Below are positions 3,477 to 20,000 of a DNA stretch of 20,000 nt, in pieces. The notes beneath the pieces were generated by a model that worked only from the letters and a program-made list of their open reading frames with translations, was not told the origin of the DNA and ran no database searches. The translations under genes and the position numbers were made by a program. Positions within the stretch are counted from its first letter, which is position 1, and every line of letters begins with the position of its first letter. This stretch comes from an uncultured virus (IMG/VR IMGVR_UViG_3300011712_000002) (Duplodnaviria; Heunggongvirae; Uroviricota; Caudoviricetes), in IMG/VR virus record IMGVR_UViG_3300011712_000002. The stretch is one strand, 5' to 3'.

Positions 3477-4130
3477 ATGTCTAATATCATCTCAAAAAAA
3501 TCTGTTCTTGAAGCTGCTACCACTGTTGCAACTGAATTAGCTGAAACTGTTGCAAGCGTCGAACAAAATTACACTACTCGCTATAATGCTGGACAAGATA
3601 CCAAAGCAGATAAAAAAGCTATGCAAGCTGCTAAAACTAAACTTGCATACTTCACTAACAACGTTTGCAAGCCACTGACAGACGATAAAGCAAATAGCGT
3701 GTTTTATTATGCGATTAAAGCAAGCAAGCAAACGCCAGAGCAGTTTTTCCGCGAAGCAATGGAGAATAGCTATAGCTTAGAAAAACTGGTCTACTTGATT
3801 AATTCTATCCGCGCTAAACGTTGCGAATACTCATTAGCGGATCAATCTGGTTCACGCGTTTTTGCAATTGTTGAAATTATCAAAGATGAAATGGAAATTT
3901 TCACCAATGGCGCAATTAAAACGCTGATGGATGAAGCGAAGAAAGAAAACGAGAAGCAAGCGGATCAAACGTATACGCAAGCAAATCAGTTAATCGCTAT
4001 GTGTGAACGTTTGGGCTTGATTGAGAAGATCAAAGGAGCTGGCGCAGCCAAAAACGGATCACAACAATATAAACTGTTAGATAATGATTTTGTGTCTTAT
4101 ATCCGTGATGCTTTCGCAGTAGCTCAATAA
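3477..4130 (+). CDS. Hypothetical protein, possible C-terminal winged helix
   Basis: AGGA RBS then ATG 3477; C-terminal 'QANQLIAMCERLGLIEKIKG...YKLL' resembles a wHTH wing. Confidence 0.8.
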   Translation: MSNIISKKSVLEAATTVATELAETVASVEQNYTTRYNAGQDTKADKKAMQAAKTKLAYFTNNVCKPLTDDKANSVFYYAIKASKQTPEQFFREAMENSYSLEKLVYLINSIRAKRCEYSLADQSGSRVFAIVEIIKDEMEIFTNGAIKTLMDEAKKENEKQADQTYTQANQLIAMCERLGLIEKIKGAGAAKNGSQQYKLLDNDFVSYIRDAFAVAQ

Positions 4131-18544: not shown

Positions 18545-19063
18545 TTAATCGAAGCCAATCGTTCCACCTGAATCGAAGGAACTGCCTGAGTCATAGCTTC
18601 CACAGCCATGGTCGAATCCACTATGGCTCCCGTGGGAAGAATGGTGGCTGGTGTGGCTGGAACTGCTGCTGACGGAGCAACTGCTTGCGGGGCTGCTATG
18701 GTGCGAACTGCTGGCACTCTGAGAGACGCTGGCGCGAGTTGGAACATCGTCGTTATCGATGTACACAAAAGGCACATGGTTAACATCACTAACAGGGGCT
18801 GAGCTGCGCGCCGAAGTCGTTGAAGCTGGTACTGCTGCATGAGATTTTTCCTTCCCTAGAAAAACTGGCGGATCGGACAACCCCCACAACTCCACTTCAG
18901 AACGGCCACGTTGCTTCTCGACATGCTTTACACCGGCTGCGGTGCCGAACGTAACCAAAGCATCGGAAAGGCGATCGCAACGTGACTCAAGTTCACGGAT
19001 GCGGATTTCCATCTGCCGAAGCTGGCGCTCGAAGCGGCTCTTGAAGAACAAATAGCTGATCAT
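18545..19063 (-). CDS. Hypothetical protein with Ser/His/Gly-rich low-complexity tail
   Basis: ATGA overlap with the upstream gene; N-terminal coiled coil; 'SSSSSHTSHHSSHGSHSGFDHGCGSYDSGSS'. Confidence 0.75.
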   Translation of the reverse strand: MISYLFFKSRFERQLRQMEIRIRELESRCDRLSDALVTFGTAAGVKHVEKQRGRSEVELWGLSDPPVFLGKEKSHAAVPASTTSARSSAPVSDVNHVPFVYIDNDDVPTRASVSQSASSSHHSSPASSCSVSSSSSHTSHHSSHGSHSGFDHGCGSYDSGSSFDSGGTIGFD

Positions 19064-19371
19064 TTAGTTTCCACTCGTTTCCAATCGCAGGCGAGCTGGT
19101 CAATCATCGAAGCCAGGTAATCAACCACCTTGCCATTTGGAAGAACCATCTCTAAACCAGGAAATACGGTGTAACCGTCTGGCTGGTGGACTTCAAAAAG
19201 GTTGAGCGGAAGGCCGAAGAACACTTTGCCTTCAGTTTTCTGGTATTCGCTTGAGCTGATCACCCCGGTGCGGAGTCGTATGGATGTGTCGGCAGGCCAT
19301 TTCTGGCGTGCGAAGGAGGCGCCGGTTTTAATGCCGGTCAAAACGTCTGCGTAAGACAACAACATATTCAC
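19060..19371 (-). CDS. DUF2829 family protein (Tad2-like)
   Basis: 'SYADVLTGIKTGASFARQKW' and 'PGLEM..NGKVVDYLASMIDQLACDW' match the family pattern F.EAL..LK.G..VAR.GW ... W.ASQTD.LA.DW. Confidence 0.7.
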   Translation of the reverse strand: MNMLLSYADVLTGIKTGASFARQKWPADTSIRLRTGVISSSEYQKTEGKVFFGLPLNLFEVHQPDGYTVFPGLEMVLPNGKVVDYLASMIDQLACDWKRVETK

Positions 19372-19485
19372 AAACGAATCCCTTCTTGAGACACAAAGAG
19401 TTACGGCTGGGAGAACCCAGCCGTGTTTGCGCTCCGTCCATGGAGCAAGCGCTAAACCAGCGCCGTCGTCGTCCTGACGGGGGTC

Positions 19486-19521
19486 AATTTAATATTTTGA
19501 ATGTAGGTAGTCAACTACTTA
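19486..19521 (-). promoter_or_regulatory. Sigma70 promoter containing a class-B operator
   Basis: TTGACT-N17-TAAATT on the minus strand; TAGGTAGTCAACTACTTA at 19504-19521. Confidence 0.75.
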
Positions 19522-19569
19522 TTTTCGCCTCGCGCGGGTGAATAAGTTTTATTGGATTTTTATGATTAA

Positions 19570-20000
19570 ATAATACCCAGAATGGGTTTAGAAGTGTGAA
19601 ACCGAACGAATGTGAGGTTTCCCTCGAACGGAGTGAGAGGTTGTGTGTTCTGGATATAATTCACCCAGGGAAGCAGGGTTAAAAAACCCACGCCAACCTG
19701 AGCAAATCATAGCCAGAAACTATGACCGAGATCTAATGCCAGTCCCGGTTAGGAAGGTTGTGGGCAGCAATACCCCAGAATCGAGATCCTTCCTCACTGT
19801 AGGAGGGGAACACCAGACACCAACCTCTTGGAACTCGTCTGTTTTCGACAACCTACAGTGACTCCTTTTCTCTCCTGCTTTGATTCTCCCTCTCCCCGAG
19901 CGGCTTTCGCGTCCCGGTTCGATCGCTGGTAACAGGTTCCTTTAAGCAGACGCCAGCGCCATAATCCTCCACCCATCTGCCGAGCCATTCCGAAAAATGA
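19570..20000 (-). ncRNA. Candidate large structured non-coding RNA (may extend past the window)
   Basis: At least eight stems, with GAAA tetraloops and G-U pairs that only work on the minus strand; no convincing ORF. Confidence 0.45.

What the first reader, a model, noticed from the sequence alone, without database searches (positions are those of the whole stretch)
19570..20000. Candidate large ornate ncRNA on the minus strand
Seen: more than 430 nt with no credible gene but dense pairing. Stems: TCACTGTAGG/CCTACAGTGA (19794-19803 with 19852-19861, enclosing inner stems), AGGAAGG/CCTTCCT (19751/19788), TCATAG/CTATGA (19707-19725), GGGTT/AACCC (19676-19689), ACCCA/TGGGT (19575-19587). On the minus strand: GAGG-GAAA-CCUC (19614-19625), GC-GAAA-GC (~19903-19910) and GCAGAUG/CGUCUGC (19946-19980). 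GNRA loops and G-U wobbles favour the minus strand. Inference: a phage-type large structured RNA, analogous to but not identified as GOLLD/ROOL.
Basis: partly seen in the sequence, partly recalled or inferred. Interest (0 to 1): 0.72.

Follow-up and report, generated by a model that had tools for sequence, protein, structure and literature searches.

The report
Large structured RNA of SSU5-type phage-plasmids
The last 430 bases of the window encode an unannotated, elaborately folded RNA of about 435 nucleotides that is carried by hundreds of phage-plasmids of E. coli, Klebsiella and relatives, and whose tail contains a hairpin otherwise found at phage replication origins.

Summary
Window 19568-20000, read on the minus strand, is a conserved non-coding element of about 435 nt.

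- **Distribution:** it occurs in 687 plasmids, 12 phage records and 232 of 5426 complete E. coli genomes, all SSU5-type phage-plasmids. None of the annotations shown under the matches marks it as an RNA.
- **Structure:** on 45 sequences from 5 lineages, a consensus fold of 100 pairs in 18 helices is 99.7% paired. 35 pairs show compensatory double changes, against 15.7±2.5 in shuffles (0 of 500 reach it) and 2-6 in slid controls.
- **Gene signals:** no ORF is conserved and Rfam has no match. A conserved sigma-70 promoter lies just beyond base 20000, and a weak terminator-like hairpin sits at 19575-19587.
- **Link to origins:** the 3' domain carries two hairpins with the loop UCACUNCGUUC. In unrelated phages the same 19-nt hairpin lies just after iteron-like repeats. 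In 4 of 4 phage genes tested it lies inside a replication-initiator gene, where lambda has its origin.
- **Neighbours:** in 43 of 48 loci an RNase HI gene follows the RNA directly, though not in this window's lineage.

My best reading (about 0.35) is an origin RNA that opens or primes the lytic origin. A trans-acting RNA is nearly as likely. Expression as a discrete transcript is not shown.

The parts
19568..20000 (-). Structured non-coding RNA gene, about 435 nt. The 5' end lies at or 1-2 nt beyond the window end. The promoter is outside the window.
   Evidence: Conserved block in alignment A2. Fold with 100 pairs in 18 helices, 99.7% paired, 35 compensatory pairs. Rfam: no family. No conserved ORF. 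In G001 (97% identical) the sequence upstream reads TTTACC-17 nt-TAACAT with TG before the -10 box, 7 nt before the first conserved base (read from the alignment).
19989..19997 (-). 5' hairpin P1 (helix 1), very variable in sequence between lineages
   Evidence: 4 of 4 pairs have compensatory changes (helix 1). In the window lineage it is a different small hairpin, CAUUU-UUCG-GAAUG.
19945..19981 (-). Long helix P2 (helix 2)
   Evidence: 13 pairs, 4 with changes on both sides, 100% paired; coordinates.
19874..19936 (-). Domain closed by helix 3, with helices 4-6 and a conserved G-rich single strand
   Evidence: Helix 3 has 3 of 5 pairs compensatory. The 5' half of the RNA is G-rich, with GC skew +0.2 to +0.5.
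19652..19865 (-). Multi-branch core closed by helix 7, holding helices 8-15
   Evidence: Helices 7, 8, 9, 11, 12, 13, 14 and 15 each have 1-5 compensatory pairs and are 98-100% paired; coordinates.
19622..19640 (-). Origin-type hairpin A: CCUC-UCACUCCGUUC-GAGG
   Evidence: The 4 stem pairs never vary across the 43 distinct sequences (helix 16). The same 19-mer pattern (18 fixed bases) occurs in 51 loci of other phages in 13 flank classes, in several of them with covarying lower stems. In 4 of 4 tested cases it lies inside a replication-initiator gene, after iteron-like repeats.
19598..19621 (-). Hairpin B: GAAACC-UCACAUUCGUUC-GGUUUC, with a loop like that of hairpin A
   Evidence: Helix 17 has 3 of 6 pairs compensatory. 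The SSU5 type carries the exact loop UCACUUCGUUC here, seen as the 13-mer repeated 25 nt apart.
19575..19587 (-). Terminal hairpin ACCCA-UUC-UGGGU followed by an A/U-rich tail: a weak terminator-like site, the likely 3' end
   Evidence: Flagged as terminator-like at the matching place in G001. Helix 18 is kept through C-G to U-G changes.
19520..19574 (-). A/T-rich spacer, then a CGCGCGAG box downstream of the RNA. This is the candidate unwinding region under the origin reading.
   Evidence: Read from alignments A1 and A2. An A/T-rich stretch and a CGCGCGAG-like box are present in the window, G001 and the SSU5 type. The role is inferred, not tested.

Best explanation
The element is an independent gene for a structured RNA of about 435 nt on the minus strand. 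A conserved sigma-70 promoter just beyond base 20000 drives it, and it ends at a weak terminator-like hairpin at 19575-19587. That part I hold at about 0.9.

I propose that it works in cis as the RNA component of the phage-plasmid's lytic replication origin.
1. Transcription into the 3' domain and the A/T-rich tract behind it opens the duplex, probably as a persistent RNA-DNA hybrid.
2. The hybrid is trimmed by RNase HI, which most lineages encode immediately downstream.
3. The displaced sense strand, or the RNA itself, then presents the two UCACUNCGUUC hairpins. These are the same hairpin that sits at the edge of the unwound region in iteron-type phage origins.
4. The element's own replisome (Pol III alpha, DnaB-like helicase, DnaG-like primase, gp32-like SSB) is loaded there.

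What is shown: the structure, its conservation, the promoter sequence, the sharing of the hairpin with origins, and the RNase HI neighbourhood. What is inferred: the hybrid, the priming, the loading step, and that this is an origin at all.
For: **Structure.** 100 pairs, 99.7% paired, 35 compensatory pairs against 15.7±2.5 in shuffles (0 of 500) and 2-6 in slid controls. The sense strand folds better than the antisense strand.

**Gene signals.** A -35/-10 pair (TTTACN or TTTAAA, 17 nt, TAnnAT, mostly with TG) is conserved in 5 lineages (read from the alignment). There is a terminator-like hairpin at the 3' end.

**Link to origins.**
- The 19-nt hairpin occurs in 51 loci of other phages, in 13 flank classes.
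- 7 of the 13 classes have a 7-mer repeated at least 3 times within 300 nt upstream.
- One class has 10 iteron-like copies, mostly at 11-bp spacing, followed by a purine tract.
- 4 of 4 ORFs tested that contain the hairpin are replication initiators. One of them has Phage_rep_O at E 2.5e-27 and is followed by a DnaC/IstB-like loader gene.
- In those four initiator genes and in the SSU5 RNA the hairpin lies on the transcribed sense strand. In several classes a purine- or A-rich tract precedes it.

**Neighbours.** RNase HI (PF00075, E 8e-44) follows the RNA in 43 of 48 loci.

**Replication genes.** The genome encodes its own replisome. Its plasmid initiator Rep3 lies 18 kb away, so a separate lytic origin is needed and none is assigned.

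**Composition.** The 5' half of the RNA is G-rich, which favours RNA-DNA hybrids.

**A second RNA at the same place.** A distant Klebsiella phage-plasmid group keeps the order small protein, promoter, about 470-nt structured RNA. RNase HI follows in pFF979_1 by similarity and in two of the five other annotated records. Its RNA sequence is unrelated.

**Precedents.** RNA-based origins are known in ColE1 and in extrachromosomal mycobacteriophage prophages (PMC7157519; abstract, section 7 and passages read).
Against: - No experiment or read-level data show a discrete transcript, a hybrid or initiation here.
- An R-loop origin needs no elaborate fold of 18 helices. Such conservation of structure fits a trans-acting RNA at least as well.
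- There are no iterons, and only a near-consensus DnaA box read by eye (alignment).
- No conserved antisense promoter of the ColE1 RNA I type was found. The one promoter-like site on the plus strand is not kept in the SSU5 type.
- The window's own lineage and G001 have no RNase HI gene at all, and the RNase HI adjacency may be a single inherited event.
- GC skew gives no origin signal.
- Six of the 13 hairpin classes show no repeats upstream. Near-copies of the hairpin in Aeromonas phage CC2 sit in promoter-plus-stem-loop repeats that are not origins.
- Three more distant phage-plasmids lack both the RNA and the hairpin.
Confidence: 0.35

Rival explanations
1. A trans-acting structured RNA: a stable, protein-binding or scaffold RNA in the way of other large bacterial and phage RNAs. 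It might titrate or recruit a host or phage protein through the repeated UCACUNCGUUC hairpins. Its position next to replication genes would then be incidental.
For: The fold of 18 helices, kept through about 30% sequence divergence, is more than a primer needs. It has its own promoter and a terminator-like end. It sits at the head of a variable accessory region that includes a Tad2-like anti-defence gene. The downstream gene varies while the RNA stays. The hairpin module is present in 2-3 copies, as binding sites often are.
Against: No partner is known. The conserved small protein encoded upstream has no recognisable fold or family. The rest of the G001 or SSU5 genomes holds no complementarity of 15 nt or more. 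This reading does not explain why the same hairpin sits inside initiator genes after iterons.
Confidence: 0.3
2. A cis-regulatory leader of the downstream operon, for example an antitermination or attenuation RNA that controls early or accessory genes.
For: It is promoter-proximal and on the same strand as all downstream genes. The 3' hairpin is only a weak terminator, so read-through is likely. The 3' domain can form an alternative hairpin, GAGG-GNAA-CYUC, that excludes hairpins A and B (read from the alignment).
Against: The first downstream gene differs between lineages: RNase HI, a DUF7557 gene, or a Tad2-like gene. No ligand- or protein-responsive element is recognisable and Rfam gives no match. 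435 nt is very long for a leader.
Confidence: 0.12
3. The folded form that matters is single-stranded DNA, not RNA: a priming or helicase-loading signal of the kind used by single-strand initiation sites.
For: The hairpin is shared with DNA replication origins. G-T wobbles are tolerated in DNA hairpins.
Against: A conserved promoter sits exactly at the 5' edge of the conserved block. About ten of the pairs are G-U in most sequences, and the long-range helix 7 spans 210 nt. Both fit RNA better than transient single-stranded DNA.
Confidence: 0.1
4. Not a functional element: conserved by chance or by linkage, or a short protein-coding gene.
For: ORFs of 40-72 aa exist in every lineage. SSU5 and some RefSeq records extend the RNase H CDS into the region.
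Against: ORF positions and frames are not conserved, and indels are not multiples of 3. The compensatory changes cannot be explained by coding.
Confidence: 0.03

Closest known systems
ColE1 RNA II (primer RNA of ColE1-type plasmid origins)
   Same: A structured RNA several hundred nt long with its own promoter, read towards an origin-like region. RNase H is involved in ColE1, and an RNase HI gene lies next to this RNA in 43 of 48 loci. A G-rich segment could anchor a hybrid.
   Different: There is no sequence or Rfam similarity. No conserved antisense RNA I promoter was found (and alignment). The host element is a 110-kb phage-plasmid with its own Pol III-type replisome and a separate Rep3 plasmid replicon. 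Hybrid formation is untested.
RNA-based origins of extrachromosomal mycobacteriophage prophages (Wetzel et al. 2020, PMC7157519)
   Same: A 400-500 bp non-coding, transcribed region of a plasmid-like prophage that is required for replication (abstract and passages read).
   Different: The host phylum is different and nothing ties the sequences together. Those elements replace RepA for prophage maintenance, whereas this phage-plasmid has a Rep3 initiator elsewhere. Any origin here would therefore be the lytic one.
Lambda-type origin inside the O gene (iterons, A/T-rich region)
   Same: The 19-nt hairpin of the RNA's 3' domain is found in O-like initiator genes right after iteron-like repeats, and in several classes after a purine-rich tract.
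   Different: The SSU5-type element has no iterons and lies in no initiator gene. In their place stands a promoter with about 360 nt of structured RNA. The papers on ori-lambda that I read in passages (PMC6022878, PMC7466680) do not mention this hairpin.
Large structured bacterial and phage RNAs GOLLD and ROOL (names and character recalled, not from a call)
   Same: The size class (over 400 nt), the many helices, and carriage by a phage-type genome.
   Different: No match to any Rfam model at gathering score or at E up to 1-10. The host range is Enterobacteriaceae phage-plasmids.
Immunity RNAs of phage-plasmids and satellites (P1 c4, P4 CI; recalled)
   Same: A non-coding RNA at the head of an operon of a phage-plasmid. 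In SSU5 the operon includes an antirepressor gene.
   Different: Those RNAs are about 70-80 nt (recalled) and act by pairing with sites in their own operon. Here there is no Rfam C4 match and no complementarity of 15 nt or more. The antirepressor is absent from the other lineages.

Membership tests
Any Rfam 15 family (including GOLLD, ROOL, C4, RNAI) | Match to the family covariance model at its gathering score | tested here: not met
   0 matches on the whole window. The 4 sub-threshold matches are to miRNA and snoRNA models at E 0.011-5.6. Seven full-length representatives gave 1 match, at E 0.8, to a hepatitis C virus stem-loop model.
Structured non-coding RNA gene (generic) | Base pairs kept by compensatory changes beyond controls | tested here: met
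   35 of 100 pairs have double changes, against 15.7±2.5 in shuffles (0 of 500) and 2-6 in slid controls. 99.7% of cells are paired.
Structured non-coding RNA gene (generic) | Own promoter and terminator | tested here: inconclusive
   The -35/-10 pair is conserved in 5 lineages. In G001 it scores 8 of 12 and was not flagged by the scan. A weak terminator-like hairpin was flagged.
Structured non-coding RNA gene (generic) | A discrete transcript | tested here: inconclusive
   15 runs on record as RNA hold the Klebsiella-type stretch. The 3 contig runs laid carry it inside contigs of 1.3-28 kb, and the raw-read run had 0 reads.
Structured non-coding RNA gene (generic) | No conserved ORF | tested here: met
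   ORFs differ in columns and frame between lineages.
ColE1-type RNA-primed origin | Antisense regulator RNA I opposite the 5' part | tested here: not met
   There is no Rfam RNAI match. The only promoter-like site on the plus strand is not conserved in the SSU5 type (alignment).
ColE1-type RNA-primed origin | Persistent RNA-DNA hybrid cut by RNase H to give the primer | not testable with these tools
   The only evidence is circumstantial: an RNase HI gene directly downstream in 43 of 48 loci, and none in G001 or the window.
Lambda-type (O/iteron) origin | Iterons bound by an initiator encoded around them | tested here: not met
   No direct-repeat family was found in L001 or L003 apart from the duplicated 13-mer of the hairpin loops. 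The element is intergenic.
Lambda-type (O/iteron) origin | A/T- or purine-rich tract followed by the conserved hairpin | tested here: met
   GAAAAGACAA (SSU5 type) or GAACACACAA (window) precedes CCUCUCACU. The same arrangement is seen in the O-like genes of L005, L019 and L072 and in the iteron class of L011/L132.

The most novel reading that the evidence does not exclude
SSU5-type phage-plasmids start lytic replication from an origin in which a dedicated, highly structured RNA has taken the place of the initiator protein and its iterons. The UCACUNCGUUC hairpin would then be a general, so far undescribed replisome-loading or priming signal, shared by this RNA origin and by O-type origins of many unrelated phages. 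The conserved trio of small helical protein, RNA and RNase HI would form the origin module. A second, unrelated RNA occupies the same slot in another Klebsiella lineage, which suggests that the RNA diversifies as incompatibility determinants do.
Probability: 0.3. Interest if true: 0.88.

Novelty: new variant of a known kind. Interest (0 to 1): 0.74.

Why it matters
Structured bacterial RNAs longer than 400 nt are few, and most lack a function and a tractable host. This one sits in E. coli, Klebsiella, Enterobacter and Salmonella phage-plasmids: 687 PLSDB plasmids and 232 of 5426 complete E. coli genomes. Some of these elements can be grown as phages, such as SSU5 and Cyrano.

If it is the lytic origin, it gives a first handle on how this widespread group switches from plasmid to phage replication. 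Members of this group are known to carry resistance genes (PMC9600943, search listing only). It would also give a function to a hairpin conserved at many phage origins.

If it is a trans-acting RNA, it is a new large RNA class with a repeated, sharply defined hairpin module that invites a search for its protein partner.

Tried and rejected
- **GC skew of the 110-kb relative G001.** It follows gene orientation, since nearly all genes are on one strand, so it gives no origin signal.
- **RNA-seq.** 15 RNA-labelled runs hold the Klebsiella-type stretch. The three contig runs laid carry it inside contigs of 27.8, 10.6 and 1.27 kb, which cannot show a discrete transcript. The one raw-read run had 0 reads, so it is no test.
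- **Target search by duplex energy.** Meaningless, because the program allows huge internal loops.
- **Target search by short BLAST.** The longest complementarity or identity to the rest of the G001 or SSU5 genomes was 13-14 nt at E 0.14 or worse. The 19-nt hit is the RNA's own hairpin.
- **Strand test on the isolated hairpin.** Sense and antisense MFE differ by little, and mostly in favour of the antisense, so it is uninformative.
- **The 77-aa upstream protein.** No Pfam family; PHROG 5343 is of unknown function. It has 17 homologues, the named ones in Enterobacteriaceae. The model is three helices at pLDDT 73. No PDB match reached E 0.001.
- **Other flanking genes.** PHROGs and Pfam on ORFs around the hairpin in four further phage contigs gave no replication gene next to it.
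- **Named relatives of the O-type and iteron-type loci.** None in the phage collection. One chance-level hit to a microvirus.
- **Genome-contig scan with a 16-base core.** Badly chosen: by my own rough estimate (2 strands of 596 billion bases divided by 4^16) about 280 chance matches are expected, so its counts prove little.
- **Earlier findings of this scan.** Nothing on this sequence or genome.
- **Literature.** Searches for SSU5 or phage-plasmid together with noncoding or structured RNA terms found no paper combining them. A pHCM2 search was too loose to be useful. Supplements of large ncRNA catalogues were not opened, so the RNA may be listed there without a name.
- **A pseudoknot** between the G-rich strand and CUCCCCUUC. 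It is complementary in the SSU5 type but not clearly in the window lineage, so I dropped it.

Full report
**What is there.** The last 430 bases of the window hold no credible gene. ORFs of 40-72 aa exist on both strands but are not conserved.

The minus strand folds to -156.4 kcal/mol (z -2.83; 0 of 100 shuffles as good). The plus strand reaches only -125.6 (z -1.23; 12 of 100).

Rfam 15 has no match at gathering score anywhere in the 20-kb window. At E up to 10 the region gives four sub-threshold hits to miRNA and snoRNA models. Seven full-length relatives gave a single hit, at E 0.8.

**Where it belongs.** The window's assembly is not held. The nearest record, G001, is a 110,224-bp virus contig with terminal repeats. 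It carries the element at 97% identity.

blastn finds it at about 69% identity in 12 phage records, among them Salmonella phage SSU5 and Escherichia phage Cyrano. With an E. coli-type copy as query it is found in 687 plasmids, 686 of them over at least 80% of its length:

| Genus | Plasmids with the RNA |
|---|---|
| Klebsiella | 310 |
| Escherichia | 195 |
| Enterobacter | 88 |
| Salmonella | 49 |
| Citrobacter | 24 |
| Cronobacter | 10 |
| Shigella | 7 |

It is also in 232 of 5426 complete E. coli genomes. None of the annotations shown under the matches marks an RNA there. Some records stretch the neighbouring rnhA CDS into it.

By the Pol III alpha gene, 821 plasmids belong to this group at 60% identity or more. 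The 63 Yersinia pMT plasmids among them lack the RNA. In the one I inspected, the whole block from the accessory region to the SbcCD-like genes is missing.

**Structure.** I aligned the window with 44 distinct copies from IMG/VR, SSU5 and Cyrano, which fall into 5 clusters at 90% identity.
- RNAalifold predicts 103 pairs, 36 of them with compensatory double changes.
- After I dropped one spurious outer helix, 100 pairs in 18 helices are 99.7% paired.
- 35 pairs have changes on both sides, against 15.7±2.5 in 500 shuffles (none reaches 35) and 2-6 when partners are slid by 1-3 columns.
- About ten pairs are G-U in most sequences, and the sense alignment folds better than its reverse complement. 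The folding strand is therefore the window's minus strand.
- No ORF keeps its place or frame across lineages.

The two GNRA mini-hairpins are not.

**Gene signals.** Upstream of the first conserved base, five lineages keep TTTACN or TTTAAA, then 17 nt, then TAnnAT, mostly with TG before it (read from the alignment). In G001 the -10 box ends 7 nt before the base that matches window 20000, so the promoter lies just outside the window. The consensus scan did not flag this promoter, which scores 8 of 12. It did flag the hairpin ACCCATTCTGGGT plus A/T tail at the 3' end as terminator-like (window 19575-19587). The RNA is thus about 435 nt, running from 20000 to about 19568.

**The 3' domain and replication origins.** The invariant hairpin CCUC-UCACUNCGUUC-GAGG (window 19622-19640) was used as a pattern on IMG/VR.
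- 69 loci are the SSU5-type RNA. The other 51 fall into 13 classes by their flanks.
- In several of these other phages the 19-mer caps hairpins whose lower stems differ in sequence but stay complementary.
- In 7 of the 13 classes a 7-mer is repeated at least 3 times within 300 nt upstream.
- The largest class (35 loci) has 10 iteron-like copies, mostly at 11-bp spacing, then a purine tract, then the hairpin.
- In five classes the hairpin lies in a sense ORF of at least 206 aa. All 4 such ORFs that I tested are replication initiation proteins by PHROGs. One has Phage_rep_O at E 2.5e-27 and is followed by a DnaC/IstB-like loader gene. In each, the hairpin comes just after the repeats. That is the place of ori-lambda inside gene O.
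- The second 3' hairpin of the RNA (19598-19621) has nearly the same loop. The SSU5 type carries the exact loop twice.
- The papers on ori-lambda that I read in passages do not mention such a hairpin.

**Neighbourhood.** In 48 oriented loci, a 77-aa gene (PHROG 5343, function unknown) lies upstream in 48 of 48. An RNase HI gene (PF00075, E 8e-44) follows directly in 43 of 48, a DUF7557 gene in 3, and none of these three genes in 2. The window has none of these next to the RNA; its next gene is Tad2-like (19060-19371). G001 and the window encode no RNase HI.

The relative's genome encodes Pol III alpha, a DnaB-like helicase, a DnaG-like primase, a ligase, a gp32-like SSB, a RecA-like protein and a 5'-3' exonuclease. 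Its plasmid initiator (Rep3) is 18 kb from the RNA.

**A second RNA in the same slot.** Three more distant phage-plasmids have neither the hairpin nor any blastn or nhmmer match. Yet Klebsiella pFF979_1 keeps the order 77-aa gene, about 650-nt gap, RNase HI.
- The gap starts with TTTACT, 17 nt, TATCAT.
- It folds with z -7.73.
- It occurs in 30 Klebsiella plasmids.
- It shows 16 compensatory pairs among 143 in only six sequences.

The slot, not the sequence, is conserved.

**Reading.** That this is a real structured RNA gene I hold at about 0.9. For its function I commit, at about 0.35, to an origin RNA. Transcription from the dedicated promoter opens the 3' domain and the A/T-rich tract. RNase HI trims the hybrid. 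The origin-type hairpins on the displaced strand or on the RNA then recruit the element's own replisome. ColE1 RNA II and the RNA-based origins of mycobacteriophage prophages are the precedents (PMC7157519; abstract, section 7 and passages).

Against this reading:
- no transcript, hybrid or initiation is shown;
- the fold is far richer than priming needs;
- there is no antisense partner;
- this lineage has no RNase HI;
- GC skew is silent;
- 6 of the 13 hairpin classes show no repeats upstream;
- near-copies of the hairpin in Aeromonas phage CC2 lie in promoter-plus-stem-loop repeats.

A trans-acting protein-binding RNA (0.3) is the main rival. A leader of the downstream operon (0.12) and a single-stranded-DNA signal (0.1) follow.

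**Novelty.** I found no Rfam family, no RNA annotation in the records shown, and no paper in the searches. Supplements of large ncRNA catalogues were not opened. I file it as a new variant of a known kind: a large structured RNA of a mobile element, possibly an RNA-type origin.

Noticed in passing
L133:3880-4030; L072, L039, L091 (motif at 701 or 301 of each locus); L132:3500-4020: A 19-nt hairpin, CCTC-TCACTNCGTTC-GAGG, sits just after iteron-like repeats in several unrelated phages. In four cases it lies inside O-like or other replication-initiator genes. It looks like an undescribed conserved component of phage origins.
   Followed up: partly
L135 onward (genome contigs), e.g. L146, L202, L223: 79 of 132 instances of the 17-nt core share the flanks GAT...ATGACA. 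They belong to a widespread bacterial repeat that often comes paired with an inverted, variant copy (TGTCATTYCGAGCGNAGCGAGRAATC). G:C to A:U differences at loop positions 3 and 9 suggest the 'loop' is really a UC/UC internal loop, then 2 bp, then a UNC triloop. Some copies lie right after tRNA genes, also in haloarchaea. About 280 chance matches are expected for this pattern by my own estimate, so the counts are weak.
   Followed up: partly
Aeromonas phage CC2, NC_019538.1: 81113, 122057, 147731, 189861 (L264-L267): Four copies of a repeat of about 90 nt. Each has a TATAAT-type promoter-like site followed by a stem-loop that ends in a near-copy of the hairpin core (GTCTCACTACGTTCGAG). One copy lies beside a homing endonuclease gene.
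   Followed up: partly
L293:16740-17290 (Klebsiella pFF979_1) and L302-L306: A second, unrelated structured RNA of about 470 nt lies between the 77-aa gene homologue and RNase HI. It folds with z -7.73, shows 16 compensatory pairs in 6 sequences, and occurs in 30 Klebsiella plasmids.
   Followed up: partly
window 19372-19567 versus G001 71899-72617 (L001 806-1429): Between the RNA and the Tad2-like gene, G001 carries an extra segment of about 0.7 kb with a 207-aa DUF7557-like gene, which the window lacks. In SSU5 an RNase HI gene sits there. The 3' edge of the RNA is a junction where cargo is swapped.
   Followed up: partly
window 19060-19371 (-): The 103-aa ORF matches the Tad2-like Thoeris anti-defence domain (PF11195, E 2.5e-7). 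The genes behind it include TerB-like, HD-domain, UmuC-like and DUF4942 methyltransferase-like ORFs, so this is an accessory or anti-defence island.
   Followed up: no
L098 versus L011-type loci: In one of 36 loci of the iteron-type phage class, the flanks are the reverse complement of the usual ones while the 19-nt hairpin top keeps its orientation. The apex is flipped relative to its stem, either by inversion within the palindrome or by an assembly artefact.
   Followed up: no
SSU5 NC_018843.1 79147-79911 (L003 3259-4023): The annotated RNase H CDS of SSU5 (254 aa) starts inside the RNA's 3' domain, at the last base of the hairpin. Cyrano's homologue is 197 aa. The SSU5 start is probably set too far upstream.
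   Followed up: partly
L003 about 3880-3920; L072 downstream of the motif; L054 downstream of the motif: Alternating purine-pyrimidine, CG/TG-rich tracts (for example CACGCACGCGTGCGCAC, CGTGCGCGCACG, CGCGTGCGTGCGC) lie 10-110 nt downstream of the hairpin in three unrelated contexts.
   Followed up: no
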